A stretch of DNA of 32,000 bases from Minisyncoccota bacterium (GTDB lineage: Bacteria; Patescibacteriota; Minisyncoccia; Minisyncoccales; Minisyncoccaceae), in the NCBI GenBank assembly GCA_041650375.1, contig JBAZLH010000004.1, positions 1 to 32,000 on the forward strand, given 5' to 3'. How positions within the stretch are numbered: the stretch's first letter is position 1; each line of letters starts with the position of its first letter. Below, one piece after another: positions 8,972 to 20,135 of this stretch. Position numbers and translations under genes: made by a program. The notes under the pieces are model-generated. The model did no database searches and was not told the DNA's origin. It saw nothing but the letters and a program-made list of their open reading frames with translations.

Positions 8972-10510
8972 TTATAACGGTATGCTTCCGTGCTTTCTCA
9001 TAATCTTATTTTCCCGTTTCGCGGAAATTGATTCCAAGCATTTAATTAAAACATTTCTGGTCTCGGCCGGATTAATAATTAAATCAACTTGCCCGAGCTT
9101 GGCAGCGCAAAACGGATCCAGTAAATTTTCTTTCAACTCCCCTATTTTTTCTTGCTCGATTTTTTCCGGATCCGGGCTGGCGTCAATTTGTTTTTTAAAA
9201 ATAATTTTTACCGCTTGTTCCGGCCCCATTACCGCGATTTGCGCTTCCGGCCAAGCAATCACTTTATCATAGCCAAGCTTGCGGGACGCCAAAGCGATAT
9301 ACGCTCCCCCAAAGGCTTTTCTTAGGATAACGCTAATCTTGGGAACCGAGGCTTCGGCATAGGCGTATAAAACCTTGGCGCCGTGCCTGATAATTCCCTG
9401 GTGTTCCTGGTTGGCGCCGGGCAAATATCCGGGAGTATCAACCAAGTTTATTATTGGTAAATTAAAAGCGTCGCAAAATCTGACAAAACGCGCAATCTTA
9501 TCCGAAGAATCAATGTCCAAAACTCCGGCAGAAGACTTGGCTTGGTTGGCCACCACTCCAACAACTTTTCCGGACAATCTGGCAAATCCCACTACCGCGT
9601 TGGCGGCAAAGCCGGCCTGAATTTCAAAAAAAGAATTCTCATCAAAAATCTCATTGATTACGGCTTTAATGTCATAACTCTTATTAAAATCTTCGGGAAC
9701 TATTTCCAATAACTTTTCATTTTTGTCCGCCCTGGCCGCGGCCGGTTTGGCGGGCATGTCTTCCAAATTGTTTTGAGGCAAATAAGAAAGCAATTGTTTT
9801 ACTCCAATAAAACAATCTTTTTCATTTTCGTAAACAAAATGCGCGCACCCGCTTTTGCTTCCGTGTACTGCGGCTCCGCCCAAATTTTCAAAATCAACAT
9901 CCTCGCCCGTTACTTTCTTAATCACTTCCGGCCCGGTAATATACATCTGGGATATTTTATCAACCATGAAAATAAAATCTGAAAGTCCGGGAGCGTAACA
10001 AGCTCCGCCCGCGGACGGGCCGACAATCACGCTTATCTGGGGCACCACGCCGGAAGACTTGACCATATTTTTAAATATGGAAGCGTAGCCGTCCAGGCTG
10101 GCAATCCCCTCCTGGATCCTGGCTCCGCCCGAATCCATAATGCCGATAATCGGGCATCCGTTCTTTTCCGCCAATTCAATTGTTTCCGCTATTTTCTGCC
10201 CGTGCATTTCACCCAAAGACCCGCCCATTTTGCTAAAGTCTTGGCTTAAAACATACACCAAGCGATTATTTATTTTACCGAATCCGGTAATCACGGAATC
10301 CCCCACGAACTTTTTTTTGCCCAATTCTTCTTCACTGAACCGGCTCTCAATAAAACCTCCCAATTCCACAAAGCTGCCCGCATCCAAAAGCAAATCAATT
10401 CTTTCTCTGGCGGTAAGCTTGCCTTTTTGGCGCTGTTTTTCCTCCAGTTCGGAATCTTTAAGCCCGGCCAATTTCTCATTTAATTTTTTTATGCCTTTTT
10501 CAAAATTCAT
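8972..10510 (-). CDS. Acyl-CoA carboxylase carboxyltransferase subunit (fused alpha/beta, PccB/AccD5/MmdA type)
   Basis: 512 aa with the typical LTARERIDLLLD, GGSLGEMHGQKI, DSGGARIQEG, GPSAGGACY and VIAWPEAQIAVMGPE regions. Confidence 0.9.
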   Translation of the reverse strand: MNFEKGIKKLNEKLAGLKDSELEEKQRQKGKLTARERIDLLLDAGSFVELGGFIESRFSEEELGKKKFVGDSVITGFGKINNRLVYVLSQDFSKMGGSLGEMHGQKIAETIELAEKNGCPIIGIMDSGGARIQEGIASLDGYASIFKNMVKSSGVVPQISVIVGPSAGGACYAPGLSDFIFMVDKISQMYITGPEVIKKVTGEDVDFENLGGAAVHGSKSGCAHFVYENEKDCFIGVKQLLSYLPQNNLEDMPAKPAAARADKNEKLLEIVPEDFNKSYDIKAVINEIFDENSFFEIQAGFAANAVVGFARLSGKVVGVVANQAKSSAGVLDIDSSDKIARFVRFCDAFNLPIINLVDTPGYLPGANQEHQGIIRHGAKVLYAYAEASVPKISVILRKAFGGAYIALASRKLGYDKVIAWPEAQIAVMGPEQAVKIIFKKQIDASPDPEKIEQEKIGELKENLLDPFCAAKLGQVDLIINPAETRNVLIKCLESISAKRENKIMRKHGSIPL

Positions 10511-10543
10511 AAATCTTAAATGTTTATTTTTTTAATTTATATT

Positions 10544-11095
10544 TTATTGGTTATTCTGATTAATTATTTCTAATTGATTTTTTAATTCCGAAAGGATTTT
10601 TTCCAAAATTTCGTTATTATCAATTTCTTTAAATAATACTTGCCGCAATGAAACGGAAATATCTTTTAAGTCATTTGGAAATTCTTTTATGTTCGTATCC
10701 AGCCCCACGCCGATTATGGAAACCAAGGTTTTATCTCCCATAATTACATTCTCGGTTAAAACGCCACAAACTTTTTTGCCATCCAATAAAATGTCATTTG
10801 GCAATTTTATTAACGGCTCCAAATTGAAATCGTCTTTTATGATTTTACTGATAACGAAAGCGGCTAAAATAGTAATGGTTTGCAAATCCGCGATGCTGCT
10901 CTTGGGCAAAATTACGGAAAAATACAATCCGCCTTCGGGAGAAAACCAAGCCTCCCCTTTTCGGCCGTGCCCATTGCTCTGTTGGCGCGCCAAAACAACC
11001 GTCCACGGCGATTCATTTTGAATTGCCAATTCTTTGGCCTTTTCACTGGTGGAAGGAATATCCTCAAATTCAATTATTTTAAATTTAGGCTCCAT
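10544..11095 (-). CDS. birA: Biotin-protein ligase, catalytic domain only
   Basis: GHGRKGEAWFSPEGGLYFS matches the GRGRxGRxWxSPxGxLYxS signature. At 183 aa it has no HTH and no obvious C-terminal BPL_C domain. Confidence 0.8.
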   Translation of the reverse strand: MEPKFKIIEFEDIPSTSEKAKELAIQNESPWTVVLARQQSNGHGRKGEAWFSPEGGLYFSVILPKSSIADLQTITILAAFVISKIIKDDFNLEPLIKLPNDILLDGKKVCGVLTENVIMGDKTLVSIIGVGLDTNIKEFPNDLKDISVSLRQVLFKEIDNNEILEKILSELKNQLEIINQNNQ

Positions 11096-11100
11096 AAATA

Positions 11101-11490
11101 TTATTCTAAAATTATAAGCAAATCCCCTTCCCTGACGGCTTGGCCCTTCTTGACCAATATTTCTTTTACCTTGCCTTGCGTTTCCGCCAAAATTTCATTT
11201 TCCATTTTCATGGCTGATAAGGTTAAAAGTTTTTGCGCCACTTTTATTAGGCTATTCGGCTCAATTGAAATTTCGGAAATTACGCCAGACAAAGGCGCTT
11301 TTATTTGTTTAGAATTTTTGGGCGCGATTGAGGCCGGCTTAACGAAACCGCTATTTTCTTTTTGCGCCTTTCCATTGCCGTTCGCGTCAAAAACATATTC
11401 GTTGCCGTCAATATTAACAACCACCGTGTCCGCCAAATCTTCCACGCTTACGTTATATTCCCTGCCTTTAATTTTTATTTTTAAATTCAT
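11101..11490 (-). CDS. accB: Biotin carboxyl carrier protein
   Basis: C-terminal biotinyl domain with LSAMKMENEI (AMKM biotinylation motif). Confidence 0.85.
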   Translation of the reverse strand: MNLKIKIKGREYNVSVEDLADTVVVNIDGNEYVFDANGNGKAQKENSGFVKPASIAPKNSKQIKAPLSGVISEISIEPNSLIKVAQKLLTLSAMKMENEILAETQGKVKEILVKKGQAVREGDLLIILE

Positions 11491-11492
11491 AC

Positions 11493-13031
11493 CTATCTCA
11501 TCATTTTAATCCTGTTTCCCGCAACCCATTTTGACGCCCCGGAAACATTATTTTGATTTTTATTTTTAACGCTTTTATACACCTGAAAAACCGCTTCGGC
11601 CAATTCCGGCTCGCTGATGTCGTGAACTAATTTTTCTTCAAAGTGCTTATGCGACCCGACCGAGCACATTATTTCTTTAAGTATTTCGCTCTCTTCTATA
11701 AAATTGGAATTATAATTTCCGGACAAAAAATCTTTATGTCTCAAAAGAATTTTAAAAAACGGAATCGTGGTGGAAACACCCTCAATGATTATTTCGTCCA
11801 GCGCCCGTTTCAGTTTGCTAATTGCCTCGTTCCGTGTTTTGCCGTGCGCGATAATCTTGGCTATCAAAGAATCAAAATACGGATAAATTTCCTGGCCTTC
11901 GTGCAAAAAACTGTGCACGAATATTCCCTGCCCGCCCGCCGGAACATATTTTTTAATCACCCCGGGCGTTGGCAAAAAATTCTTGGACGGGTCCTCGGAA
12001 TTGATTCTGGCTTCAATCGCCCAGCCGTTAAAATGGACTTCTTTTTGCGAAAAAGAAATTTGCTCGCCCCGGGCGATTCTAATTTGCTGCTCCACGATAT
12101 CTATTCCGGTAATAGCTTCCGTAACCGGATGCTCAACCTGAATTCTCGGATTAACTTCCATAAAATAATAATTGCCTTCCGTGTCCATTAAAAATTCCAC
12201 GGTGGCGGCTCCCTGATACCTCACTTCTTCGCAAATTTTTACAGCCCAACGCCCCATTTCTTCCCTTTGCTTATCCGTTAAAAAAGAAGACGGGCTCTCT
12301 TCCAGCAATTTTTGGAAGCGGCGCTGGATTGTGCAATCCCTCTCGCCCAAATGAACCGCCTTGCGCCCGTCGCCCAAAACCTGGAACTCAATATGCCTGG
12401 ATTCGGGCAAATATTTTTCCAAAAAGAAATCCAAATCCGTGAACCCGGCCGACATTTGTTTTTGGATTCCGGAAGTGATTGTTAAAAAGTCCGTGCCGCT
12501 GATGTCATGGTCGATTACGCGAATACCCATACCGCCTCCGCCCCTTTGGGCCTTAAAGATAAATGGCGGTTTGATTTTTCGCGCGCTCATAAATAAATCT
12601 TTGGTGGTTCTAATCGGACGGTCGCTGGCGGGCAAAGTCGGCACACCAACTTTCTTCGCCACTTTCTTGGCTTCAACTTTATCTTCAAATCTTCGAAGAG
12701 TTTTATAATGGGGCCCGATAAATTTTATTTTATTTTTCGCACACAAAAGGGCGAACTTCCAATTTTCCGCCAAAAAACCATAGCCCGGGTGAATCGCGTC
12801 CGCTTCCGCCCGCTTGGCTATTTCAATTATTTTTTGCTTATCCAAATATCCGGAAGACCCTTCTTTTTCCAAAAAATAAAATTCGTCCGCCAAATTGGCT
12901 TCCAAAAAATCTTTTTCTTGTCCAACCATGGGGCAAAGAGCCACGGTTTTAATACCCATCTCTTTGCAGGTTCGGATAATCCTGATGGCGATTTCTCCCC
13001 GATTGGCGATTAAAATCTTTTTAATTTTCAT
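11493..13031 (-). CDS. accC: Biotin carboxylase
   Basis: KILIANRGEIAIRIIR N-terminus, ATP-grasp region (GGGGMGIRV) and EVNPRIQVEHPVTE. Carries a C-terminal extension of about 60 aa. Confidence 0.92.
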   Translation of the reverse strand: MKIKKILIANRGEIAIRIIRTCKEMGIKTVALCPMVGQEKDFLEANLADEFYFLEKEGSSGYLDKQKIIEIAKRAEADAIHPGYGFLAENWKFALLCAKNKIKFIGPHYKTLRRFEDKVEAKKVAKKVGVPTLPASDRPIRTTKDLFMSARKIKPPFIFKAQRGGGGMGIRVIDHDISGTDFLTITSGIQKQMSAGFTDLDFFLEKYLPESRHIEFQVLGDGRKAVHLGERDCTIQRRFQKLLEESPSSFLTDKQREEMGRWAVKICEEVRYQGAATVEFLMDTEGNYYFMEVNPRIQVEHPVTEAITGIDIVEQQIRIARGEQISFSQKEVHFNGWAIEARINSEDPSKNFLPTPGVIKKYVPAGGQGIFVHSFLHEGQEIYPYFDSLIAKIIAHGKTRNEAISKLKRALDEIIIEGVSTTIPFFKILLRHKDFLSGNYNSNFIEESEILKEIMCSVGSHKHFEEKLVHDISEPELAEAVFQVYKSVKNKNQNNVSGASKWVAGNRIKMMR

Positions 13032-13680
13032 ACACTAATTTTTTAATTTCTTCCATTAACTTGCCGGTAATCTCGGCGCAAAAATTTTTATACTCTTCCG
13101 AATCAACGTTAATTTGTTTCGCTTTTTGAAAATACTCAACAAAGCTGAGCGGCTTGCCTATTCTCAATTCAATATTCTTTTTTATTTTCGGTTTTTCTCC
13201 CGGAGGAAAAGTTTCAAACGCCCCGACAATGCCCATGGGCAAAATCGGCACGCCGGTGCGTAAATACAGCTTGGCAACCCCCCATTTCCCTTCCATCACC
13301 TCACCCGTGCGCGTTCGGGTGCCTTCCGGATAAATTATCAAATCGTAGCCGTTTTTCAAATATTCAACCGCTTTTTCAAACGCCAACTTTTTGGATTCAT
13401 TGTCATTTCTGTTTACCGGAATAACCTCGGCGTAGGCGTATAAAAAAGTCCTCAAAAATTTAAAACCCTTATTCTCCCTGTCCACTTGCCCGATATAGGT
13501 AAATCGCCTCGGCACGCACACGTATCCGGAAAGAACAATATCCAAATAACTTTGGTGGTTGCTGGCTAAAATAAAATTGCCTAAAGGAATATTTTCTCTG
13601 CCTTTTAATTTTTTTATGAACACTCCGGAAACGATGGGAGCTAAAAATATTTTTGAAAAAATGGAAACGAATCTGTTCAT
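13021..13680 (-). CDS. plsC: 1-acyl-sn-glycerol-3-phosphate acyltransferase family
   Basis: NHQSYLD (HX4D) and IYPEGTRTRTG motifs. 11-nt overlap with accC. Confidence 0.85.
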   Translation of the reverse strand: MNRFVSIFSKIFLAPIVSGVFIKKLKGRENIPLGNFILASNHQSYLDIVLSGYVCVPRRFTYIGQVDRENKGFKFLRTFLYAYAEVIPVNRNDNESKKLAFEKAVEYLKNGYDLIIYPEGTRTRTGEVMEGKWGVAKLYLRTGVPILPMGIVGAFETFPPGEKPKIKKNIELRIGKPLSFVEYFQKAKQINVDSEEYKNFCAEITGKLMEEIKKLVYEN

Positions 13681-13684
13681 ATTT

Positions 13685-14626
13685 TTATTTTAACAAATTT
13701 TTTCCGTTTTCCAGCAATTCGGACGCGCCCAATACCAATTCATCCATTATTTCTTGGCAAGTCTTTATTTTATTGATTCCGCCCGCGCAAATTCCGCAAA
13801 GCATCGGAGTCAAGTCGGAATTAGCCGAACCTTTGTTGCCCGCAAACCTTTCCGAATTAACTTCTTCGGGAAACGGATTTTTTTCTTCCATCTTCTTAAT
13901 GGTTTCGGTCAATTTATTTTTCAAGGCGCGAATCGGATGGCCGGTAAAGCGCGCCACCACGGTTACGTCTTCATCGGTCGCGTTAATAATCGCGTTCTTA
14001 TAGTTTTCGTGGATTTGGCATTCCGCGCTCGCCATAAACCTGGTTCCGATCTGGACGCCATCCGCGCCCAACATTAATGCCGCGGCAAAAGTATGCGCGT
14101 CGTAAATTCCGCCCGCGGCGATAATCGGAATGGTTTTAATAACCTGGCTGGTTTGCGGCACCAAACAAAAAGTGGAATTTTCTCCAATATGCCCACCCGA
14201 TTCCATTCCTTCCACCACCACCGCGTCAATTCCGTTTTGTTCCATCTTCTGCGCCAAACGCACAAACGGAACTACGGCGATAACTTTAATGCCCGCTTTT
14301 TTCAAATAAGGCAAAATCGGCAAAGGATTTCCTCCGCCCGTAAAAACAATCGGAACTTTTTGTTTAATAATCACCTTTACCAATTCGGCGACATTGGGAT
14401 TTTGCATTAAAAGATTTACCCCAAACGGCTTATCGGTCAATGTTTTGGTTTTTTTGATTTCTTCTTCAAGCCAAGCAGGCGAAGCAAAGCCGGAACCGAT
14501 AACGCCAACTCCGCCCGCGTTGCTGACGGCCGCCACCAATACGGATTCGGATACGCCGGCCATGCCGCCCTGGATTATCGGATGTTTTATATTTAAAAGT
14601 TTTACCAGTTTATTATTCTCAAACAT
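13685..14626 (-). CDS. fabK: Enoyl-ACP reductase II / nitronate monooxygenase family flavoprotein
   Basis: HPIIQGGMAGVS, FGVNL and GADGVQIGTRF. Start set at MFENNKLVKLL (14626) to avoid a 50-nt overlap with the upstream gene. Confidence 0.8.
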   Translation of the reverse strand: MFENNKLVKLLNIKHPIIQGGMAGVSESVLVAAVSNAGGVGVIGSGFASPAWLEEEIKKTKTLTDKPFGVNLLMQNPNVAELVKVIIKQKVPIVFTGGGNPLPILPYLKKAGIKVIAVVPFVRLAQKMEQNGIDAVVVEGMESGGHIGENSTFCLVPQTSQVIKTIPIIAAGGIYDAHTFAAALMLGADGVQIGTRFMASAECQIHENYKNAIINATDEDVTVVARFTGHPIRALKNKLTETIKKMEEKNPFPEEVNSERFAGNKGSANSDLTPMLCGICAGGINKIKTCQEIMDELVLGASELLENGKNLLK

Positions 14627-14645
14627 TTTTTTATAATTAAATATA

Positions 14646-16157
14646 TTATGCTTTTCTAATAAGCGGCTCTTTGGCAAGAATATTGTTGGCCTCATCCACC
14701 AATTCTTTTAACAGCTCTTTAACGCTAATGATTTTTTCTATCCGCCAAGCGTTGCTGCCGGCAAAAACCAGACCATTGTCCAAATCGCCTTTTCTGGCAT
14801 TTTCCAAGGCTTTTAAGATGCAATAACTTTTATCGCAAACCGGACCGATGCAACCAATACATTCCGTTAAGTTAACCTTGGGGGCCGTGTTGTTTAAAAC
14901 TTTTTCCACGAATTTGGTTTTTATGGCGCGCCCGGGCAAACCAACCGGCGAATGCACAATCACAATATCTTCCGCCTTGGCGTTAATATACGCTTGTTTG
15001 AATTTTATATCCGCGTCACATTCATTGGTGGCCACGAATCTAGTCGCCATTTGCACTCCCGCGGCGCCAGCTTTTAACATTTCCACAATATCCTTGCCGC
15101 TAAAAACTCCGCCCGCGGCAATCAAAGGAATTTTCACTGTTTGAACGGCTTCTTTAATAATATCAATTGTTTTCCTGAATTCATGCCCTTCCGGAAAACC
15201 CAAATGTCCGCCCGCGTCGCAACCTTCAATAATCACGGCCGCGGCTCCGGCTTTTTCAGCTTTCTCGGCCACTCGCGCGGACGATGCCATGGCAAAAACA
15301 GGAATATCGTATTTGCCCGCGATTTCAAAAATATCTTCGCGGAAACCCGCCCCTTGGATAATCAAATTGATTCCTTCTTCGGCCGCGGCTTTAACTAATT
15401 CTTTGAAATGCCCGACCACTCCCATAATATTTATCCCAATGATTCCGCTTTCGCCCGCGATTTCCCGGGCCTGCCTGATTTCATCTTTTACTTCTTGCGG
15501 ATTATTCATTCCGGAAATCGCCACAATGCCAATCGCTCCTTCTTTGGCAACATTACCGGCTAAATTATGCAACGAAACTCTCACCGCCATCCCCCCTTGA
15601 ATAATGGGAATCCTGGCTAAAATATTCCTGACTTTAAGTGCCGGCAAATTAGAAATTTTTACTTCCGCAACGGCCGGATTTATTGTATTTTTTGATTCAG
15701 CCAATTTTTCTTGCATTTCTTTTTTTGTGACTACGGCCACGCTAAACCTGACTTCGCATTTTCTTTTATCGTTTACATAGGCTTCGCCCAAAAAATTCGC
15801 AATTCTCTCAGCATACATTCCCAGCATTTTTACCCGGTATTCAATTTTGTCTCCCGGCCAAATCGGCTCGTAAAAAAACGCGCTCCTGACTTGGTAAGCC
15901 AACAAGTGCTTGTCCGCGCTTTGCTCGCCTAATTTTTCGCGCAAAAGCAAAGTCCCGGTTTGGGCTATGCCCTCCACCACCAACACCCCCGGCATTATAG
16001 GAAAATCAACAAAGTGCCCTTTAAAAAAAGGGTCTTCAACGGAAGTGTATTTATAGCCGACAATATTATCGCCTTCTATTTTTTCAATCTCATCAACCCA
16101 TAAAAATGGTTCTTGATAAGGAATCTTTTCCTTGATTTGTTCTTTTGAATACAGCAT
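14646..16157 (-). CDS. Fusion protein: N-terminal FabZ-like hot-dog dehydratase plus C-terminal FabK/NMO-family TIM-barrel flavoprotein
   Basis: The first ~145 aa carry PFFKGHFVDFPIMPGVLVVEGIAQTG (FabZ signature). Residues ~170-503 carry IPIIQGGMAVRVS...GAAGVQMATRF. A CX2CX4CX4C cluster is encoded at 14820-14861. Confidence 0.8.
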   Translation of the reverse strand: MLYSKEQIKEKIPYQEPFLWVDEIEKIEGDNIVGYKYTSVEDPFFKGHFVDFPIMPGVLVVEGIAQTGTLLLREKLGEQSADKHLLAYQVRSAFFYEPIWPGDKIEYRVKMLGMYAERIANFLGEAYVNDKRKCEVRFSVAVVTKKEMQEKLAESKNTINPAVAEVKISNLPALKVRNILARIPIIQGGMAVRVSLHNLAGNVAKEGAIGIVAISGMNNPQEVKDEIRQAREIAGESGIIGINIMGVVGHFKELVKAAAEEGINLIIQGAGFREDIFEIAGKYDIPVFAMASSARVAEKAEKAGAAAVIIEGCDAGGHLGFPEGHEFRKTIDIIKEAVQTVKIPLIAAGGVFSGKDIVEMLKAGAAGVQMATRFVATNECDADIKFKQAYINAKAEDIVIVHSPVGLPGRAIKTKFVEKVLNNTAPKVNLTECIGCIGPVCDKSYCILKALENARKGDLDNGLVFAGSNAWRIEKIISVKELLKELVDEANNILAKEPLIRKA

Positions 16158-16198
16158 AGTAACTTTTTATATTGATTTAAAATATGTTTATCGGATGC

Positions 16199-16286
16199 CT
16201 ATCGCAGGTAAATTTGCATGGTTCGCCTCGATTTATCGAGGCGAAAATTTACCGAGATAGAGCCCGCTTTCGCGCTGGCGAAAGCG
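16199..16286. repeat. Two GC-rich palindromic hairpins inside the operon's only large intergenic gap
   Basis: Nested hairpin at 16199-16260 (CTATC..GGTAAATTT..TCGCCTCGA-TTTA-TCGAGGCGA..AAATTTACC..GATAG) and hairpin at 16265-16286 (CGCTTTCGC-GCTG-GCGAAAGCG). No U-tract follows on either strand. Confidence 0.55.
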
Positions 16287-16357
16287 AGGCGTCAGACGAA
16301 TAAATATATCTTAAATCAAAATTTGAAAACAATTAATCTGAATGATTTAAATATATC

Positions 16358-17098
16358 TTATAGTGATAATCCGCCGTCAATATTAATTACAGCTCCGGTA
16401 ATAAAACCGGCTTCGTTGGAAGCAATGAACGCGATTATGTTCGCAACTTCTTCCGGCTTTCCAAATCTGCCCAAGGCGGTTAATTGTTTTACCGTGGCTT
16501 TCATTTGCTCCGGAATCGCTTCCGCCATTTTTGTTTCAATAAATCCGGGCGCAATTGCGTTTGCCCTCACTCCCACGCGGCCGACTTCCTTGGCCAATGA
16601 TTTGGTAAAGGCGATTATGCCGGCTTTGCTGGCCGCGTAATTGGCCTGGCCAAAATTACCGCGTTGCCCAACGATTGAAGCCATGCTAACGATATTGCCC
16701 TGAACTGGAACAAGCAAAGGTAAGGCCGCTTTGCTGCAATTAAACACGCCGGTTAAGTTTACGTCAATCACTTTTTGCCACTCTTCCACAGTCATTTTCG
16801 CCAAGGTCCTGTCTTTGGTAATGCCAGCGTTATTAACCAACACGTCCAAGCGCCCCATTTTAATTTGGATATCAGCAATCATTTTTTCCACGCTTTCCAT
16901 ATTGGAAACATCGGCGCAAAAATATTCGGCTTGGCCCCCCGTAGCTTCTATTTCCACCTTAACGGCTTTCAAATTTTCTTCTTGTTGGACAATATCGTTC
17001 AAAGCCACTTTGGCGTTCAGGGAAGCGAATTTTAAAGCAATCGCTTTGCCGATTCCTTGCGAAGCACCGGTAATTAAAACAACTTTTTCTTTAAACAT
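16358..17098 (-). CDS. fabG: 3-oxoacyl-(ACP/CoA) reductase, SDR family
   Basis: TGASQGIGKAIA (TGxxxGIG), NNAGI and YAASKAG (YxxxK). FabG-like length of 246 aa. Confidence 0.9.
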   Translation of the reverse strand: MFKEKVVLITGASQGIGKAIALKFASLNAKVALNDIVQQEENLKAVKVEIEATGGQAEYFCADVSNMESVEKMIADIQIKMGRLDVLVNNAGITKDRTLAKMTVEEWQKVIDVNLTGVFNCSKAALPLLVPVQGNIVSMASIVGQRGNFGQANYAASKAGIIAFTKSLAKEVGRVGVRANAIAPGFIETKMAEAIPEQMKATVKQLTALGRFGKPEEVANIIAFIASNEAGFITGAVINIDGGLSL

Positions 17099-17106
17099 AT
17101 TTATTT

Positions 17107-18168
17107 TTATATTTTATTAATATTTAATTTTATTTCTTTTATTGCCCTGCCCGCAATCGGTATTTCTTCTAAATTAATTTGGGCGATAATTTCCGGCAAT
17201 TCTTTTTGCGATACGATTTCGTTTAAGACCCTGTCCAGGTTAATAAAATTCCGGCTCGCCAAAATTATTCCCAAAAAAGCGATAAACCCGTCGCTGGTTT
17301 GGATGTATTCGGCTTCTCCCAAAGAAACTAAATTGGGCAAAGCTTTTTCCAATTCCTTGGCAATATCTTTTTCCGAATTCAAATATTTCAGGCCCAAATA
17401 ATTTTCTTTTTTTAAAACGCGGAAGACGTTTTCCGTTGCCGCAACGTTTCCGGCTTTAAGCATTCCCAAATTAAGGACTATGTCGGCGCCAACAATTTCC
17501 TCCACGATTTCCAAGTTGCCCTGTTTCACAAAATTTGACTTGGATAAATCAATCGGCGTAATTTTATTTTTTAAGCAAACATCCAAAAGCCCGGACCGAG
17601 ACGCCATGGCTTCCACAGAAAGCTCGGTAAAAGATTGGGTAGCAATTTTTATGTTTTCCAATTTTATTTTTTTGCTGAAAAGAAAAGATAAAACGCTTGT
17701 CAAAAACTCCGGTGAAGTGTTTTCCCGGAAATAAGGCTGATTGGCGGAAATTAAGGTCGGCAAAATTAAAATTTTGGAATTTTCATTTAAATCAATTCCT
17801 CCAATCAATTCCAATGCTTTTTCAATCGCGTCCGCGTAATCATATTTTATCCGCCAAATTCCGACTGCATTCCTATCTGCGTTGCTTTCAAAAACCAATT
17901 TATCGCCCTCTTTAACTTCTTCCACGGTTTTATGCGCCCACTTGTTTTTATTCTCATCTTCAACCACGCAAGCGAAATATGGGACTATTGGATGTTTGAT
18001 TGTGGGAATAAAAACCTTGGAAACAGCGATTACTTTATTTTGGCCGGAAGCCATTTTTTTTAATTCGATATTGCAAAAAGGGCACTCGCTTAACGGGTAC
18101 TGCCAAATTCTTTCGCATTTTGAACATTTATAAAAAGGCATAAGGATATAATTAATTATTTCTTTCAA
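17107..18168 (-). CDS. Fusion protein: N-terminal DUF35-type zinc ribbon plus OB fold, C-terminal DUF362-like domain
   Basis: CSKC...CPFC ribbon, then an OB-like segment (VIAVSKVFIP...YFACVVEDE...EGDKLVF). The C-terminal ~230 aa resemble DUF362 (KILILPTL....TSPEFLTSV...ADIVLNLGMLK). 17-nt overlap with the thiolase gene. Confidence 0.6.
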   Translation of the reverse strand: MKEIINYILMPFYKCSKCERIWQYPLSECPFCNIELKKMASGQNKVIAVSKVFIPTIKHPIVPYFACVVEDENKNKWAHKTVEEVKEGDKLVFESNADRNAVGIWRIKYDYADAIEKALELIGGIDLNENSKILILPTLISANQPYFRENTSPEFLTSVLSFLFSKKIKLENIKIATQSFTELSVEAMASRSGLLDVCLKNKITPIDLSKSNFVKQGNLEIVEEIVGADIVLNLGMLKAGNVAATENVFRVLKKENYLGLKYLNSEKDIAKELEKALPNLVSLGEAEYIQTSDGFIAFLGIILASRNFINLDRVLNEIVSQKELPEIIAQINLEEIPIAGRAIKEIKLNINKI

Positions 18169-19282
18169 AAATATGGACTGTAACCGAACCGCCGGCGCCG
18201 CCGATGTTGTGGGTTAGGCCGTATTTGGGCAATGGATTTGTTTGCCTTTCCGGTTCGCATCGGCCTCTCAGCTGATTGGTAATTTCGTAAATTTGCGCGA
18301 GCCCGGTTACGGAAATAGGATGGCCTTTGGCTTTCAAGCCGCCGGAAGGATTAATGGGCATTACCCCGCCTAAATTTATTTTGCCTGACTTAATCAGTTC
18401 CGCGCCTTTGCCCTCATTTGCAAAACCCAAATCCTCGTATGAAATCAATTCCACGGACGTAAAAGCGTCGTGGACTTCCGCCACGTTAATATCTGCAACC
18501 GCTATGCCGGCTTGTTTAAAAGCTTTTTGCGCCGCCAATCGGGTGGCTTTAAAATGAGTAATATCCTCCCGGCCAAAAGTTAAAATATAGTCAGTGGCAA
18601 AACCCGAACCGACAATCTTTACATCTGTTTCTTCTTGGGTAATAACAATGGCCGCTCCCCCGTTCACAGACAAAGAACAGTCCATTAAACGGAAAGGTGA
18701 AGAAACAATTGGAGAATTTTTAACTTTTTCCAAATCCACGGGTTTTTTATAAAAATAAGCTTTTGGGTTTAACGCCGCGTTAGTATGGTTTTTAAAAGCG
18801 ATTAGAGATAAGTCATCCATGCTCGCCCCGTATTTTTTCATATATTGCTGCCAAACCAAAGCGTTTTGGGTAGGAAAAAGCATCCCCTCGGTTTGCTCGG
18901 TCATTTTTTCCGCGGCTGAAAGGATCCAATCCGTGGTTGTTTCGCTTTTGTTGTCCGCGAATTTTTCCGAAGCTAAAACCAGAATATTTTTATATTGCTG
19001 CAATTGTAATGCCGTCCAAAAAGCCACTCCGCCGCCGCCGCAAACAGATGTAACCTCTATAATCGGGACATTGGTTTTAAATAAATCCGAGAGAAAAGAT
19101 ACTTTGTGCGTTTGGTGCTCCCCGCCCGCCGGGCTAGACATGCTCGCAAAAACAATCGCGTCTATGTCCGCGATTGTCATATTTCCGTCTTTTAACGCGT
19201 CCAGAGCCGCCTCGTAAGCGAATTGCCACCAAGGTTTCGTGGAATAATCAAACTTAGTCATCCCTACTCCTTTGATATACAT
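18152..19282 (-). CDS. Thiolase-like protein of the SCP-x / archaeal acetoacetyl-CoA thiolase type
   Basis: N-terminal YIKGVGMTKF, candidate nucleophile VTSVCGGGG, VHDAFT, NPSGGLKAKGHPISVTG and C-terminal NIGGAGGS. Confidence 0.85.
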   Translation of the reverse strand: MYIKGVGMTKFDYSTKPWWQFAYEAALDALKDGNMTIADIDAIVFASMSSPAGGEHQTHKVSFLSDLFKTNVPIIEVTSVCGGGGVAFWTALQLQQYKNILVLASEKFADNKSETTTDWILSAAEKMTEQTEGMLFPTQNALVWQQYMKKYGASMDDLSLIAFKNHTNAALNPKAYFYKKPVDLEKVKNSPIVSSPFRLMDCSLSVNGGAAIVITQEETDVKIVGSGFATDYILTFGREDITHFKATRLAAQKAFKQAGIAVADINVAEVHDAFTSVELISYEDLGFANEGKGAELIKSGKINLGGVMPINPSGGLKAKGHPISVTGLAQIYEITNQLRGRCEPERQTNPLPKYGLTHNIGGAGGSVTVHIFERNN

Positions 19283-19347
19283 ATATTAAAAATATTAAGC
19301 GAAGTATTTAAAAAAGCTCTTTTAATTTGTTCAGAGCCCTTACAAAT

Positions 19348-19376
19348 ATTTTACCTGGCAAAAGAGCGCCTGGCAA
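19348..19376 (-). promoter_or_regulatory. Sigma70-like promoter TTGCCA-17-TAAAAT of the thiolase operon
   Basis: -35 at 19371-19376 and -10 at 19348-19353 on the minus strand. The direct repeat CCTGGCAA x2 (19354-19361, 19369-19376) overlaps the -35 and the spacer. Confidence 0.5.
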
Positions 19377-19436: not shown

Positions 19437-20135
19437 TCAAGCACCTTTGCGGCGCTGGCGTTCAGCGTAATCCATCACGCTTTTTTCAAGCTCCTTGGGA
19501 GTAAACGCGGGAAAATAGGTTTTAGTGAAATACAGCTGAGCATAAGCCGCATCCCACATCATAAAGCCGGCCGACAAGTGCGGGTCGCCTTCCGTGCCAG
19601 TTCGAATAATCAAATCAACACCGGGCAAATCCCTGGTCCAAAGATTTTCCTTGATTGTTTTTTCATCGACTTTCTTGGATTGTTTTTGGATTGTTTTAAC
19701 GCATTCAATCATTTCATCTGTGCCGTTATAAGCCAAAAGAAAGGTTAAATGGTTTTTATCATAACCTTTTGTGCTATCTATGGATTTTTGAATAACTTGC
19801 TTAAGCTTTTCCGGGAATAATTCTCTCCATCTTCCCAAAACTTCCACTTTTACTTTATTCTTATGGATGCGTTCATCCGCAATAAGTTTTAAAAACTGCC
19901 TCTCTATAATGCCATAGATGTAATCGATTTCTTTTTTTTGCCTTTTTAAAACATTATCCAAAGAAAGCCCCCAAAAAGTAAGATAAGGTATTTTCAGTTC
20001 CAAAACTTTCTCCAATATTTTTTCAAAAGCATCGGATCCTTTCTCGTGCCCAAGCATAACTGCCACCCCGTTTTTTTTAGCCCAACGGCGGTTGCCGTCC
20101 GGAATCAGGGCGATGTGTTGAGGAAAATTTTTCAT
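19437..20135 (-). CDS. uppS: Undecaprenyl (isoprenyl) diphosphate synthase
   Basis: HIALIPDGNRRWAK, FSLDN-like WGLSLDNV and IRTGTEGDPHLSAGFMMW motifs. Confidence 0.92.
   Translation of the reverse strand: MKNFPQHIALIPDGNRRWAKKNGVAVMLGHEKGSDAFEKILEKVLELKIPYLTFWGLSLDNVLKRQKKEIDYIYGIIERQFLKLIADERIHKNKVKVEVLGRWRELFPEKLKQVIQKSIDSTKGYDKNHLTFLLAYNGTDEMIECVKTIQKQSKKVDEKTIKENLWTRDLPGVDLIIRTGTEGDPHLSAGFMMWDAAYAQLYFTKTYFPAFTPKELEKSVMDYAERQRRKGA

What the first reader, a model, noticed from the sequence alone, without database searches (positions are those of the whole stretch)
8972..19376. Ten-gene acyl-chain synthesis operon with a thiolase/DUF35 condensing module and no ACP, FabD or KAS
One promoter (19348-19376) precedes ten minus-strand genes separated by -17 to +33 nt, apart from one 200-nt gap. 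The order is SCP-x/archaeal-type thiolase, DUF35+DUF362 fusion, FabG, FabZ-FabK-like fusion, FabK, PlsC, AccC, BCCP, BirA and a PccB-type carboxyltransferase. The operon therefore encodes a carboxylase that can make malonyl- or methylmalonyl-CoA, all three reductive-cycle activities and a glycerolipid acyltransferase. The canonical type II FAS initiation and carrier parts (acpP, fabD, fabH/F/B) are absent from the operon and from this window. The only candidate condensing enzyme is a thiolase partnered with a DUF35 protein. That pairing is known from the archaeal acetoacetyl-CoA thiolase/HMG-CoA synthase complex and from CoA-dependent beta-oxidation-like enzymes. This suggests an ACP-independent, CoA-thioester-based fatty-acyl elongation pathway feeding PlsC, in a lineage type usually considered unable to make its own lipids.
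Basis: partly seen in the sequence, partly recalled or inferred. Interest (0 to 1): 0.82.

Follow-up and report, generated by a model that had tools for sequence, protein, structure and literature searches.

The report
CPR fatty-acid operon without ACP
A ten-gene operon in an ultra-small (Paceibacteria/CPR) bacterium joins an archaeal-type thiolase and its DUF35 partner to bacterial FabG, FabZ, FabK, PlsC and an acyl-CoA carboxylase, with no carrier protein or normal condensing enzyme nearby, so bacteria thought to steal their lipids may make fatty acids on CoA.

Summary
Ten co-directional genes lie at 8972-19282 behind one promoter-like site, and the domain calls are right.

Three refinements:
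- The DUF35 part of gene 2 shows only by fold. Pfam does not detect it.
- The domain fused to FabZ resembles H. pylori FabX (FMN plus a Cys cluster) rather than FabK.
- Gene 2 starts at ATG 18141.

The window comes from a Candidatus Paceibacterota (CPR) genome. The same gene order recurs widely. The thiolase sits next to gene 2 in 64 of 70 related loci with room. Genes 3-10 all follow in 37 of 45. The cultured, fully sequenced Minisyncoccus archaeiphilus carries at least the first eight genes in this order, and its authors could not explain them. No ACP-like ORF occurs in 1.18 Mb of these neighbourhoods.

My best reading (about 0.55) is an ACP-independent, acyl-CoA-based fatty-acid synthase feeding a PlsC-type acyltransferase. 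It would be a hybrid of the archaeal thiolase/DUF35 complex and the bacterial reductive cycle.

Two caveats:
- In one sub-lineage the thiolase-DUF35-FabG trio heads a mevalonate/isoprenoid cluster instead, so the thiolase may also, or only, make acetoacetyl-CoA for isoprenoids.
- ACP-independent synthesis in Parcubacteria was already floated by Probst et al. in 2020.

Verdict: partly supported; a new variant of a known kind.

The parts
19348..19376 (-). Sigma-70-like promoter candidate, TTGCCA-17-TAAAAT, upstream of the thiolase gene
   Evidence: Best minus-strand consensus match in 8200-19600 (10 of 12). It lies just after the uppS terminator-like hairpin at 19404-19429. It is a consensus match only; the number of sites is not above shuffles.
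18152..19282 (-). Archaeal/CPR-type (DUF35-partnered) thiolase, 376 aa; candidate condensing enzyme
   Evidence: Thiolase_C_1 at 138 bits. NF004720 at 335 bits and the M. thermolithotrophicus ACAT model at 267 bits. Best PDB matches are 7YVY and 6ESQ. C81, C202, H271, N311 and H321 are invariant in 54 homologues.
17107..18141 (-). DUF35 (Zn-ribbon plus OB fold) fused to a degenerate DUF362/LarA-like domain, 344 aa; probable scaffold partner of the thiolase
   Evidence: AlphaFold model at pLDDT 94. Foldseek matches DUF35 proteins over ~1-100 and LarA-like domains over ~100-344. C6, C9, C20 and C23 are invariant. Pfam DUF362 scores 22.8 bits, below the cut-off of 24.
16358..17098 (-). FabG-type NAD(P)H 3-ketoacyl reductase (SDR), 246 aa
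   Evidence: adh_short_C2 at 227 bits. TIGR01830 at 285.7 bits, just under its cut-off of 297.75; acetoacetyl-CoA reductase model at 235.7 bits.
16169..16322 (.). MITE-like hairpin insertion that accounts for the 200-nt FabG/FabZ gap; not part of the pathway
   Evidence: Folds at -64.9 kcal/mol, z = -7.2. It has 23-nt terminal inverted repeats and a 13-nt direct repeat. Where FabG is directly followed by the FabZ gene in the 12 genome loci, the gap is a few to ~25 nt. The core is absent from 94 loci.
15720..16157 (-). FabZ (3-hydroxyacyl dehydratase, hotdog) domain of gene 4, residues ~1-146
   Evidence: FabA Pfam domain at 72.5 bits. FabZ models at ~103 bits. The catalytic FKGHF His and PGVLVVEGIAQ Glu are conserved.
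14646..15656 (-). FabX-like FMN (NMO) domain of gene 4 with an invariant C-x2-C-x4-C-x4-C motif, residues ~168-503
   Evidence: Best PDB match is H. pylori FabX 7E1Q at 182 bits, against ~117 bits for FabK. The four Cys and the AGGH His are invariant in 10 homologues, including the unfused L012 gene. FabX cluster ligands come from PMC8626469.
13685..14626 (-). FabK enoyl reductase (FMN, NMO family); the ORF extends to 14695 but the start is probably Met24
   Evidence: TIGR03151 at 339.5 bits. PDB FabK 7L00 at 289 bits, with no FabX among matches at E <= 1e-20. Homologue alignments begin at residue ~24.
13021..13680 (-). PlsC/LPLAT-family glycerolipid acyltransferase, 219 aa
   Evidence: Acyltransferase PF01553 at 89 bits. 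The HX4D (NHQSYLD) and EGTR motifs and a hydrophobic N-terminus are visible in the sequence.
11493..13031 (-). Biotin carboxylase (AccC), 512 aa
   Evidence: All three biotin-carboxylase domains. NF006367 and NF006406 at ~554 bits.
11101..11490 (-). Biotin carboxyl carrier protein, 129 aa
   Evidence: Biotin_lipoyl at 56.9 bits. SAMKME biotinylation motif.
10544..11095 (-). Minimal biotin-protein ligase (BirA catalytic domain only), 183 aa
   Evidence: TIGR00121 at 149.7 bits over model positions 2-174 of 235. GHGRKGEAW motif.
8972..10510 (-). PccB/AccD5-type acyl-CoA carboxyltransferase, 512 aa
   Evidence: Carboxyl_trans at 597 bits. PDB 1VRG at 608 bits and S. coelicolor PccB at 565 bits. 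Ile405 occupies the position of PccB residue 422, as in the D422I chain 1XNW.
19437..20135 (-). UppS (cis-prenyltransferase), directly upstream; a recurrent neighbour but a separate transcription unit
   Evidence: Prenyltransf at 187 bits. It is followed by a terminator-like hairpin. It lies upstream of the thiolase in 22 related loci.

Best explanation
The operon encodes a self-contained, ACP-independent fatty-acid synthesis and lipid-acylation module that works on CoA thioesters.

What the sequences show:
- BirA can biotinylate the BCCP.
- AccC, BCCP and the PccB-type transferase form an acyl-CoA carboxylase.
- The thiolase is of the archaeal, DUF35-partnered kind with an intact Cys-His-Cys active site.
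- Its neighbour is a DUF35 domain fused to a degenerate DUF362 domain.
- FabG, a FabZ domain and FabK supply the three reductive-cycle activities.
- A FabX-like FMN domain with a Cys cluster is fused to FabZ.
- The acyltransferase has the PlsC catalytic motifs.

What I infer:
- The thiolase/DUF35-DUF362 pair forms a complex, as in archaea, and condenses acyl-CoA with a C2 unit again and again.
- FabG, FabZ and FabK act on acyl-CoA.
- The FabX-like domain takes trans-2-enoyl from the fused FabZ and makes the cis-3 isomer, giving unsaturated acids without oxygen.
- PlsC uses acyl-CoA to acylate lysophosphatidate or glycerol-3-phosphate.

The extender is probably malonyl-CoA, because carboxylase genes accompany the cluster in nearly all loci with room, and a biotin transporter often does too. 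That would require this thiolase to condense with decarboxylation, which is unprecedented for the clade. If the extender is instead acetyl-CoA, as in Sulfolobus, the role of the carboxylase is unexplained. The same thiolase probably also supplies acetoacetyl-CoA to the mevalonate pathway in lineages that have one.
For: - Domain assignments for all ten genes.
- DUF35 and LarA-like folds of gene 2.
- Synteny: the thiolase is adjacent to gene 2 in 64 of 70 loci, and genes 3-10 all follow in 37 of 45.
- Strong conservation: median identity is 73% for the thiolase and 66-72% for FabG, FabZ-FabX, FabK, AccC and CT.
- BioY is inserted between gene 2 and FabG in about 35 loci.
- No ACP-like ORF in 1.18 Mb of cluster neighbourhoods, whereas acpP normally sits inside fab clusters.
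- No ACP, FabD or KAS in any of the 30 window ORFs scanned.
- Cultured M. archaeiphilus, with a complete genome, carries MNSC_05910-05980 in the same order. Its authors report no complete FAS pathway and call these genes unexplained. It grows on an archaeon, which makes isoprenoid ether lipids rather than fatty-acid ester lipids (the lipid point is from established knowledge).
- 675 CPR genomes showed no ACP-making or ACP-using enzymes (PMC7242380).
- Sulfolobus KT/DUF35 binds an SDR reductase and a dehydratase and makes fatty acids on CoA.
- Relatives of gene 2 carry a 3-hydroxyacyl-CoA dehydrogenase in place of DUF362, so DUF35 tends to tether the enzyme that acts next.
- The positively charged ACP-docking helix of FabX, including R164 and T130, is not conserved here.
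- The CT has Ile at the PccB-422 position, which from memory of Diacovich et al. 2004 permits acetyl-CoA.
Against: - No biochemical data exist for any of these proteins.
- I saw only 52 kb of a 154-kb contig of this genome. An ACP, AcpS or KAS elsewhere cannot be excluded here, and some Patescibacteria have acquired acpP (PMC12455944).
- FabG, FabZ and FabK are most similar to ACP-dependent enzymes.
- The thiolase has the ordinary acid/base Cys202 and shows no sign of a decarboxylating active site.
- Iterative long-chain condensation by this thiolase is untested.
- The thiolase-gene 2-FabG trio heads mevalonate/isoprenoid clusters in L033, L035, L051, L054, L075 and L076. HMG-CoA synthase precedes the thiolase in L079.
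- Archaeal-type AACT is the known mevalonate thiolase of CPR (PMC6107057).
- No enzyme for the first acylation of glycerol-3-phosphate is in the window.
Confidence: 0.55

Rival explanations
1. The thiolase and its DUF35 partner are simply the archaeal-type acetoacetyl-CoA thiolase of a mevalonate pathway, feeding HMG-CoA synthase encoded elsewhere. They sit beside lipid genes because both pathways draw on acetyl-CoA. The Fab, Acc and PlsC genes would then not form a complete de novo pathway. At most they would modify, partly cycle or attach fatty acids taken from other cells.
For: - Six related loci have thiolase-gene 2-FabG followed by UbiA, GGR, GGPP synthase, IDI, HMG-CoA synthase, HMG-CoA reductase and a GHMP kinase.
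- L079 has HMG-CoA synthase directly upstream of the thiolase, which from memory is the typical archaeal order.
- The thiolases of these loci share all active-site residues with the window's and nest within the same family.
- The best solved match of known function is the M. thermolithotrophicus thiolase of the ACAT/HMGCS/DUF35 complex.
- CPR AACT and HMGS cluster with archaeal ones (PMC6107057).
- UppS, an isoprenoid enzyme, lies directly upstream in the window.
Against: - The mevalonate-linked loci form one sub-clade nested among Fab-linked ones, which suggests a derived rearrangement.
- No mevalonate gene is in the 32-kb window.
- The held part of the Minisyncoccus annotation table has no HMG-CoA or mevalonate entry. 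That part runs at least to the cluster, and the file was cut when stored.
- MVA genes are rare in Parcubacteria, while this pair is widespread there.
- Under this reading, four conserved carboxylase genes and three conserved reductive-cycle genes would have no condensing enzyme and no consumer for malonyl-CoA.
Confidence: 0.17
2. This is ordinary type II fatty-acid synthesis whose ACP, AcpS, FabD and ketoacyl-ACP synthase genes lie elsewhere in the genome or are too divergent to recognise. The thiolase pair has an unrelated role.
For: - FabG, FabZ and FabK score best against ACP-dependent families.
- Only part of this genome could be read.
- An acpP transfer into a Patescibacteria genome has been reported.
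- MAGs are incomplete, and small ACP genes are easily missed.
Against: - No ACP-like ORF in 1.18 Mb around 94 related loci and the window.
- The authors of the complete Minisyncoccus genome list only AccC, FabK, FabG, a FabA-like protein and an acyl-CoA synthetase.
- The survey of 675 CPR genomes found no AcpS, no FabD and no ACP-dependent enzymes.
- No PF00550, fabD, fabH or plsY entry occurs in the held part of the Minisyncoccus table.
- The near-constant position of the thiolase pair at the head of the operon would be a coincidence.
Confidence: 0.12
3. The cluster makes something other than membrane fatty acids. Candidates are short or medium 3-hydroxyacyl units, a storage polyester precursor, or an acylated secondary lipid. 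Alternatively it only lengthens scavenged short acyl-CoAs by a few cycles before PlsC attaches them to scavenged lysolipids.
For: - The thiolase-gene 2-FabG trio persists without FabZ, FabK or Acc nearby in some loci, so a 3-hydroxyacyl-CoA product may be useful on its own.
- Lysolipids are enriched in CPR-rich samples.
- A single PlsC-type enzyme, with no PlsB, PlsX or PlsY seen here, suits re-acylation of lysolipids.
- Minisyncoccus has a long-chain acyl-CoA synthetase.
Against: - A full reductive cycle, a carboxylase and a membrane acyltransferase in fixed order is the signature of bulk acyl-chain synthesis.
- A FabX-like unsaturation module is hard to explain for short products.
- No PHA synthase, thioesterase or tailoring gene is in the window or the examined variants.
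Confidence: 0.1

Closest known systems
Sulfolobus acidocaldarius archaeal fatty-acid synthase complex (KT/DUF35 Saci_1121/1120, SDR reductase Saci_1104, MaoC dehydratase Saci_1085, MDR enoyl-CoA reductase Saci_1115; bioRxiv 10.1101/2024.07.05.601840)
   Same: A thiolase with a DUF35 partner as the condensing module. An SDR ketoacyl reductase encoded beside it. No ACP, so CoA thioesters are the presumed carriers. A hotdog-fold dehydratase.
   Different: - The dehydratase is FabZ, not MaoC.
- The enoyl reductase is FMN-dependent FabK, not an MDR enzyme.
- DUF35 is fused to a DUF362 domain.
- An acyl-CoA carboxylase, BirA and often BioY are in the operon, whereas malonyl-CoA use was disproved for one Sulfolobus thiolase (Saci_1114) and judged unlikely for that pathway.
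- A FabX-like module and PlsC are included.
- The host is a bacterium.
Archaeal acetoacetyl-CoA thiolase / HMG-CoA synthase / DUF35 complex (M. thermolithotrophicus, PDB 6ESQ/6ET9)
   Same: The closest solved thiolase of known function (188 bits), with the same Cys/His/Cys positions. The DUF35 chains match the N-terminal domain of gene 2. In variant loci HMG-CoA synthase is in the same cluster.
   Different: No HMG-CoA synthase is in this window. The DUF35 protein carries an extra 240-residue domain. Here the pair heads a Fab/Acc/PlsC operon.
Bacterial type II fatty-acid synthesis (FabG, FabZ, FabK, AccABCD, PlsC)
   Same: The same families for keto-reduction, dehydration, enoyl reduction and 1-acylglycerol-3-phosphate acylation. 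Biotin-dependent carboxylation supplies the extender.
   Different: No ACP, AcpS, FabD or FabH/F/B in the window, and no ACP-like ORF in 1.18 Mb of related neighbourhoods. The carboxylase is the three-part AccC/BCCP/PccB type rather than AccABCD. The candidate condensing enzyme is a thiolase.
Helicobacter pylori FabX (decanoyl-ACP dehydrogenase / trans-2 to cis-3 isomerase with FMN and a [4Fe-4S] cluster; PDB 7E1Q; PMC8626469)
   Same: The best solved match to the C-terminal domain of gene 4 (182 bits). The catalytic His is conserved. Four invariant Cys lie in the same C-terminal subdomain, three of them aligned to cluster ligands C304, C308 and C320.
   Different: It is fused to FabZ (separate genes only in L012). 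The first ligand, C300, is missing, and a different Cys lies between the other ligands. The ACP-docking helix and R164/T130 are not conserved. The organisms are mostly from anoxic habitats, while H. pylori FabX uses O2 as its acceptor.
Other DUF35-thiolase assemblies: BbsAB benzoylsuccinyl-CoA thiolase (7PXP), Ltp2-ChsH2(DUF35) aldolase (6OK1), PhlABC and MucABC acyltransferases (5M3K, 9VBT)
   Same: A thiolase-fold subunit paired with a Zn-ribbon/OB DUF35 subunit. All appear among the fold matches to gene 2 and the sequence matches to the thiolase.
   Different: These are degradative or acyl-shuffling enzymes and score lower than the archaeal biosynthetic thiolases: 163, 113 and 70 bits against 188-211. 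None sits with Fab or Acc genes.
Actinobacterial/archaeal acyl-CoA carboxylases (S. coelicolor PccB 1XNY, T. maritima 1VRG, M. tuberculosis AccD5)
   Same: The carboxyltransferase scores 565-608 bits against these. Biotin carboxylase and BCCP are present.
   Different: Biotin carboxylase and BCCP are separate genes. A minimal biotin ligase is co-transcribed. The specificity residue is Ile rather than the Asp of PccB.

Membership tests
DUF35-partnered (archaeal AACT / SCP-x-type) thiolase | Thiolase_C_1-type C-terminal domain, and best similarity to archaeal ACAT rather than thiolase I/II | tested here: met
   PF22691 at 138 bits against 43 bits for PF02803. NF004720 at 335 bits and NF053570 at 267 bits, against 57 bits for TIGR01930. 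PDB 7YVY at 211 bits and 6ESQ at 188 bits. It is below the curated cut-offs of every NCBIfam model, so it is not an equivalog of any named enzyme.
DUF35-partnered (archaeal AACT / SCP-x-type) thiolase | Nucleophilic Cys, acid/base Cys in the xDCS motif, and catalytic His residues | tested here: met
   C81, C202 (aligned to the MHCS motif of 6ESQ), H271 and H321 are invariant in 54 homologues.
DUF35-partnered (archaeal AACT / SCP-x-type) thiolase | Adjacent gene for a DUF35 protein, and a physical complex with it | tested here: inconclusive
   Adjacency is met: 64 of 70 loci. Complex formation cannot be tested with these tools.
DUF35 (PF01796/PF12172) | Four-Cys zinc ribbon followed by an OB fold | tested here: met
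   C6, C9, C20 and C23 are invariant. Foldseek probability is 1.00 to BbsA, PhlB, ChsH2-DUF35, 6ESQ_E-G and 3IRB over ~100 residues.
DUF35 (PF01796/PF12172) | Match to the Pfam profile | tested here: not met
   No DUF35 hit at E <= 0.01. Membership rests on fold only.
DUF362 (PF04015) | Pfam gathering score | tested here: not met
   22.8 bits against a cut-off of 24 for the window protein. Most homologues carry a precomputed PF04015 hit. The fold matches LarA-like domains. The conserved Gly/Pro-rich stretch (IGMQGTGP...GEP) seen in the longer relatives I inspected is not evident here.
Bacterial type II FAS | Acyl carrier protein with its synthase and malonyl transacylase (acpP, acpS, fabD) | tested here: not met
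   None among the 30 scanned window ORFs. The best ACP profile hit is E = 0.97 in 1.18 Mb of related loci. The rest of the genome is not testable here. The literature reports absence in CPR.
Bacterial type II FAS | Ketoacyl-ACP synthase (FabH/FabF/FabB) | tested here: not met
   No ketoacyl-synthase domain in the window or in the variant loci examined. FabH similarity of the thiolase is only 24.7 bits.
Bacterial type II FAS | FabG, FabZ and an enoyl reductase | tested here: met
   TIGR01830 at 285.7 bits, FabZ models at ~103 bits and TIGR03151 at 339.5 bits. All are slightly or well below the equivalog cut-offs. PDB FabK scores 289 bits.
FabX (NMO-family dehydrogenase/isomerase) | Closer to FabX than to FabK, with the catalytic His conserved | tested here: met
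   182 bits against ~117 bits. The His of AGGHLGF is invariant.
FabX (NMO-family dehydrogenase/isomerase) | Four Cys ligands of the [4Fe-4S] cluster (C300, C304, C308, C320) | tested here: inconclusive
   Three align. C300 is absent, and another invariant Cys lies between, giving C-x2-C-x4-C-x4-C. Cluster binding is not testable here.
FabX (NMO-family dehydrogenase/isomerase) | ACP-docking residues (basic helix alpha-7, R164, T130) | tested here: not met
   KALKILCKRWSDRYKR is replaced by SSARVAEK--AEKAG. R164 and T130 align with Glu by my own count of the printed alignment, which is approximate.
Archaeal KT/DUF35 fatty-acid synthase complex | KT/DUF35 pair plus an SDR ketoacyl-CoA reductase | tested here: met
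   The thiolase, gene 2 and FabG form the most constant core of the cluster.
Archaeal KT/DUF35 fatty-acid synthase complex | MaoC-type dehydratase and MDR enoyl-CoA reductase; malonyl-CoA independence | tested here: not met
   FabZ and FabK are found instead. An acyl-CoA carboxylase is co-operonic. The extender unit is not testable here.
Biotin-dependent acyl-CoA carboxylase | Biotin carboxylase, BCCP with an AMKM lysine, carboxyltransferase and a biotin ligase | tested here: met
PlsC / LPLAT acyltransferase | HX4D and EGTR catalytic motifs | tested here: met
   NHQSYLD and YPEGTRT. PF01553 at 89 bits. The acyl donor (CoA or ACP) and the acceptor are not testable here.
Mevalonate pathway entry module (AACT + HMGS) | HMG-CoA synthase and reductase encoded with the thiolase | tested here: not met
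   None in the window. They are present in variant loci L033, L035, L054 and L075, and HMGS is upstream in L079.

The most novel reading that the evidence does not exclude
An archaeal-type thiolase, held on a DUF35-DUF362 scaffold, acts as an iterative ketoacyl-CoA synthase that uses malonyl-CoA and decarboxylates it. Together with FabG, a FabZ-FabX fusion and FabK it forms a third kind of fatty-acid synthase: ACP-free and part archaeal, part bacterial. This would give many Paceibacteria, including archaea-parasitising Minisyncoccus, autonomous synthesis of saturated and unsaturated membrane acyl chains. The same thiolase would serve as a shared entry point for fatty-acid and isoprenoid lipids, which bears on how the 'lipid divide' arose.
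Probability: 0.25. Interest if true: 0.88.

Novelty: new variant of a known kind. Interest (0 to 1): 0.7.

Why it matters
CPR/Patescibacteria make up a large share of bacterial diversity and are generally described as unable to make membrane lipids. That description underpins the view that they are obligate symbionts.

A conserved operon that could make fatty acids without ACP would overturn it for a large class, the Paceibacteria. It would explain how Minisyncoccus can live on an archaeon that offers no fatty acids. It would also extend the recently shown archaeal thiolase/DUF35 route into Bacteria in a hybrid form.

The open question is now directly testable, because a cultured, fully sequenced carrier exists and the genes are few and defined. 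If the thiolase really uses malonyl-CoA, that would be new chemistry for the thiolase family. The co-location with mevalonate and prenyl-lipid genes in some lineages touches on the origin of the bacterial/archaeal lipid divide.

Tried and rejected
- **Rest of the genome.** I tried to reach it for acpP, fabD and fabH. The look-up of encoding contigs extended the window by only 10 kb on one side, giving a ribosomal operon with no ACP. Two look-ups found no record.
- **Minisyncoccus annotation table.** It is held only in part. The absence of PF00550, fabD, fabH and plsY there and of HMG-CoA or mevalonate entries covers only that part. It runs at least to the cluster, and I did not establish how much of the genome it includes.
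- **Literature.** Searches for DUF35 or DUF362 together with CPR terms found no paper linking them. Several broader searches returned only unrelated FAS papers. The PNAS paper on the archaeal thiolase/HMGCS complex is not held. The Minisyncoccus metatranscriptome supplements gave only a thiolase fragment with negligible signal.
- **Degradative beta-oxidation.** Rejected, because FabG, FabZ and FabK are the biosynthetic, R-specific, reductive types and sit with a carboxylase and PlsC.
- **Biotin genes as a decarboxylase sodium pump.** Rejected, because an ATP-grasp biotin carboxylase is present and no membrane beta subunit is.
- **The OCD/mu-crystallin gene** inserted in some loci. I considered it as an alternative enoyl reductase. 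It is an archaeal-type alanine dehydrogenase (394.8 bits against a cut-off of 409), so I dropped it.
- **The longer (460-495 aa) relatives of gene 2.** I considered whether they hide a carrier domain. Pfam finds only DUF362 in them, and I saw no ACP-like motif in their C-terminal ~120-170 residues.
- **The 200-nt gap.** I considered it as a regulatory RNA or an internal terminator. It has the form of a genome-specific inverted-repeat insertion and is absent from all homologous loci.

Full report
**What is there**

The region holds ten co-directional minus-strand ORFs.

| Gene | Coordinates | Assignment and key scores |
|---|---|---|
| 1 | 18152-19282 | Thiolase of the Thiolase_C_1 type |
| 2 | 17107-18168 | 344-353 aa protein with a sub-threshold DUF362 hit |
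| 3 | 16358-17098 | FabG-type SDR (TIGR01830, 285.7 bits) |
| 4 | 14646-16157 | FabA/Z hotdog domain fused to an NMO-family FMN domain |
| 5 | 13685-14695 | FabK (TIGR03151, 339.5 bits) |
| 6 | 13021-13680 | PlsC-family acyltransferase |
| 7 | 11493-13031 | Biotin carboxylase |
| 8 | 11101-11490 | BCCP |
| 9 | 10544-11095 | 183-aa biotin ligase |
| 10 | 8972-10510 | PccB-type carboxyltransferase (597 bits) |

Direct reading adds further detail:
- PlsC has the HX4D and EGTR motifs.
- BCCP has the AMKM biotinylation site.
- BirA has the GHGRKGEAW motif.
- FabZ has its His and Glu.

The only strong promoter-like site on this strand is TTGCCA-17-TAAAAT at 19376-19348. It lies just after a terminator-like hairpin that follows uppS. 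Promoter-like matches in the region as a whole are no more frequent than in shuffled sequence, so this is consistent with one promoter but does not prove it. The flanking genes show that the host is a bacterium. They are L9, CtpA, HrcA-GrpE-DnaK-DnaJ, CTP synthase, UppS, a Xer recombinase and TIM.

**Corrections to the observation**

*Gene 2.* All homologues begin MxFYQC, so gene 2 starts at ATG 18141. It lies 10 nt after the thiolase rather than overlapping it. Pfam does not see DUF35 in it. A high-confidence AlphaFold model (pLDDT 94) shows two domains:
- Residues ~1-100 match DUF35 proteins of thiolase complexes at probability 1.00. These are BbsA, PhlB, MucB, ChsH2-DUF35 and chains E-G of the M. 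thermolithotrophicus complex.
- Residues ~100-344 match LarA-like domains, which is the fold behind DUF362.

The four zinc-ribbon cysteines are invariant.

*Genes 4 and 5.* FabK probably starts at Met24. The FMN domain fused to FabZ is not a second FabK. Its best solved relative is H. pylori FabX at 182 bits, against about 117 bits for FabK. Gene 5 matches FabK at 289 bits, with no FabX among its strong hits. FabX binds a [4Fe-4S] cluster through C300, C304, C308 and C320 (PMC8626469). Here a C-x2-C-x4-C-x4-C motif in the same subdomain is invariant in all ten homologues compared, including one genome where the domain is a separate gene.

**Origin and conservation**

Gene 2's product is identical over 92% of its length (315 aa, a shorter start call) to a protein of a Candidatus Paceibacterota MAG. 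Its top 120 relatives that carry a name are almost all named Paceibacteria or Parcubacteria. The family is compact: 369 representatives at 50% clustering, of which 53 score below 1e-30.

I fetched 12 loci from species-representative genomes and 80 from metagenomes and mapped all ten proteins onto them:
- The thiolase lies directly upstream of gene 2 in 64 of 70 loci with room.
- Genes 3-10 are all present downstream, in the same order, in 37 of 45 loci with at least 8.3 kb of room.
- A few loci are the same contig held in two collections; 54 of 61 thiolase sequences are distinct.
- Median identities to the window are 73% for the thiolase, 66-72% for FabG, FabZ-FabX, FabK, AccC and CT, and 49% for gene 2.
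- In about 35 loci a BioY biotin transporter sits between gene 2 and FabG.

**Is there a carrier protein or a normal condensing enzyme?**

None is in the window. A profile built from E. coli and B. subtilis ACP finds nothing better than E = 0.97 among all ORFs of at least 40 aa in 1.18 Mb of related neighbourhoods. In ordinary bacteria acpP lies inside the fab cluster.

I could not read the rest of this genome. One look-up extended the contig by 10 kb into a ribosomal operon. The published record fills part of this gap:
- Minisyncoccus archaeiphilus, the first cultured member of the phylum, has a complete genome. It carries MNSC_05910-05980 in the same order: thiolase, DUF362 protein with a DUF35 COG hit, FabG, FabA-like, FabK, PlsC, AccC, BCCP. 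Its authors state that the genome lacks a complete fatty-acid pathway, and that how these genes contribute 'remains unclear'.
- Probst et al. examined 675 CPR genomes and found no ACP-producing or ACP-requiring enzymes. They noted that some Parcubacteria have FAS-II homologues but lack AcpS and FabD, and said an ACP-independent route 'cannot be ruled out'.

**What kind of thiolase is it?**

Its solved relatives rank as follows:

| PDB entry | Bits | What it is |
|---|---|---|
| 7YVY | 211 | Deposited as acetyl-CoA acetyltransferase; source organism not established here |
| 6ESQ/6ET9 | 188 | Thiolase of the ACAT/HMGCS/DUF35 complex |
| 4YZO | 164 | Putative acyl-CoA acyltransferase |
| 7PXP (BbsB) | 163 | Degradative benzoylsuccinyl-CoA thiolase |
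| 6HSJ | 148 | SCP2-thiolase |
| 5M3K (PhlC) | 70 | Acyltransferase subunit |

NCBIfam gives the same order. The thiolase therefore groups with biosynthetic archaeal enzymes rather than degradative ones. Hoshino and Gaucher had already shown that the AACT and HMGS of CPR form a clade with the archaeal enzymes.

C81, C202 (in the xDCS motif aligned with MHCS of 6ESQ), H271 and H321 are invariant. This is the ordinary thiolase set, including the acid/base cysteine that deprotonates acetyl-CoA.

**The complication: a link to the mevalonate pathway**

Six related loci (L033, L035, L051, L054, L075, L076) keep the thiolase-gene 2-FabG trio. They continue with a UbiA-family prenyltransferase, a geranylgeranyl reductase, a short-chain prenyl diphosphate synthase, IDI type 1, HMG-CoA synthase, HMG-CoA reductase and a GHMP kinase. 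Six others have both sets, and in L079 HMG-CoA synthase lies directly upstream of the thiolase.

In a distance tree the four mevalonate-linked thiolases that were complete enough to include form one sub-clade nested among the Fab-linked ones. This looks like a lineage-specific loss or relocation of genes 4-10, not a separate paralogue.

The pair may therefore serve the mevalonate pathway as it does in archaea. Its role as the fatty-acid condensing enzyme remains an inference by elimination. Three points count against a mevalonate-only role:
- MVA genes are rare in Parcubacteria, while this pair is widespread there.
- No mevalonate gene lies in the window, and none appears in the held part of the Minisyncoccus table.
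- Without the thiolase, seven well-conserved genes would have no condensing partner and malonyl-CoA no consumer.

**Most likely mechanism**

- *Shown by sequence:* a complete biotin-dependent acyl-CoA carboxylase with its own ligase; a DUF35-partnered thiolase; FabG, FabZ and FabK; a FabX-like module; and a PlsC-type acyltransferase.
- *Shown elsewhere:* in Sulfolobus, KT/DUF35 binds an SDR reductase and a dehydratase and makes fatty acids on CoA, with an NADPH enoyl-CoA reductase completing the cycle.
- *Inferred here:*
  - The thiolase and gene 2 form the condensing core and tether FabG.
  - The cycle runs on acyl-CoA.
  - The FabZ-FabX fusion passes trans-2-enoyl to an isomerase for oxygen-free unsaturation.
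  - PlsC uses acyl-CoA.

Two observations fit a scaffold role for DUF35:
- Relatives carry a 3-hydroxyacyl-CoA dehydrogenase where this protein has DUF362.
- The DUF362 domain here is truncated, and the Gly/Pro-rich stretch of its longer relatives is not evident in it.

The basic ACP-docking helix of FabX is lost, which is a weak hint of CoA use. The carboxyltransferase has Ile at the position of PccB Asp422. From memory of Diacovich et al. 2004, that allows acetyl-CoA as a substrate.

The weak point is the extender unit. The near-constant carboxylase argues for malonyl-CoA. A decarboxylating thiolase of this clade is unknown, however, and the active site looks conventional.

**Comparison with what is known, and novelty**

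This is not a member of canonical type II FAS, because ACP, FabD and KAS were tested and not found. It is not a copy of the archaeal complex either: it has FabZ and FabK in place of MaoC and MDR enzymes, and it adds a carboxylase, a DUF362 fusion, FabX and PlsC. It works most like the archaeal thiolase/DUF35 synthase, with bacterial enzymes grafted on.

The general idea of ACP-independent synthesis in Parcubacteria dates from 2020, and the gene set was listed as unexplained in 2025. I found no paper that links DUF35 or DUF362 to CPR, or that describes the thiolase-led operon or the FabZ-FabX fusion. I rate it a new variant of a known kind.

**Verdict**

- Confidence in an ACP-independent acyl-CoA fatty-acid module is about 0.55.
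- The rivals are:

| Rival | Confidence |
|---|---|
| Mevalonate-only thiolase | 0.17 |
| Hidden canonical FAS II | 0.12 |
| Another product, or limited elongation of scavenged acyl chains | 0.10 |

- Interest is 0.70. The finding bears on a long-standing question, how CPR bacteria obtain membranes. It is directly testable in a cultured organism whose archaeal host supplies no fatty acids.

Noticed in passing
L035:11784-20097; also L033, L051, L054, L075, L076. Partial sets follow gene 10 in L021, L059, L065 and L092. HMGS lies upstream of the thiolase in L079.: In one Paceibacteria sub-lineage the thiolase-DUF35/DUF362-FabG trio is followed by a different gene set. It comprises a UbiA-family prenyltransferase (weakly like archaeal DGGGP synthase), a geranylgeranyl reductase (passes TIGR02032), an IdsA/GGPP-synthase-like gene, IDI type 1, HMG-CoA synthase, HMG-CoA reductase, a GHMP kinase and a methyltransferase. 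This is a mevalonate plus saturated-prenyl-lipid cluster in a CPR bacterium, sometimes alongside the Fab/Acc genes.
   Followed up: partly
window:16158-16357 (core 16169-16322): The single 200-nt intergenic gap is a highly structured element (-64.9 kcal/mol, z = -7.2). It has 23-nt terminal inverted repeats, GC-rich internal hairpins and a 13-nt direct repeat (TAAATATATCTTA). It looks like a MITE-type insertion specific to this genome: related loci have only short gaps here, and the core is absent from 94 loci.
   Followed up: yes
window:14646-15656; L012:6404-7402: The FabX-like domain carries an invariant C-x2-C-x4-C-x4-C motif. This differs from the C-x3-C-x3-C-x11-C ligand spacing of H. 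pylori FabX. The domain is fused to FabZ in nearly all loci, is a separate gene in L012, and is absent, leaving a stand-alone FabZ, in L092 and apparently L066.
   Followed up: partly
L092:2010-2663, and about 35 other loci (not in the window): A BioY biotin transporter gene is inserted between the DUF35-DUF362 gene and FabG in many relatives, including the mevalonate-type locus L075. This suggests the cluster depends on imported biotin.
   Followed up: partly
window:10544-11095: The biotin ligase is only 183 aa. It covers model positions 2-174 of the 235-position TIGR00121 profile, so it lacks the usual C-terminal domain as well as any repressor domain. tblastn matches in related loci span query residues ~5-180, so the short form looks conserved.
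   Followed up: no
L012:4957-5940; also L011, L052, L058, L087: An OCD/mu-crystallin-family gene, best matching archaeal-type alanine dehydrogenase (394.8 bits against a cut-off of 409), is inserted next to FabG or FabZ in several loci. In L011 a GGR-like flavoprotein also sits between FabG and a stand-alone FabZ, and no thiolase is adjacent.
   Followed up: partly
P0188, P0205, P0223 (representative proteins; no window coordinates): Distant relatives of gene 2 have the same DUF35-like N-terminus fused to a complete 3-hydroxyacyl-CoA dehydrogenase instead of DUF362. Others pair DUF362 with GFO/IDH/MocA oxidoreductase domains.
   Followed up: partly
window:8301-8852 and 7012-7971: Downstream of the operon lies a 183-aa ORF with no family match and no counterpart in related loci, followed by a Xer-type tyrosine recombinase. 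The recombinase is conserved downstream of the cluster in about ten loci (73-86% identity). No terminator-like site follows the last operon gene.
   Followed up: no
window:31002-31970 and L013:8679-9938: A glycine-rich-domain protein (Gly_rich_2, with a weak N-terminal prepilin-type methylation motif in the gene call of the longer contig) lies at the GC-rich end of the window. It accounts for the jump to 53% GC there.
   Followed up: no
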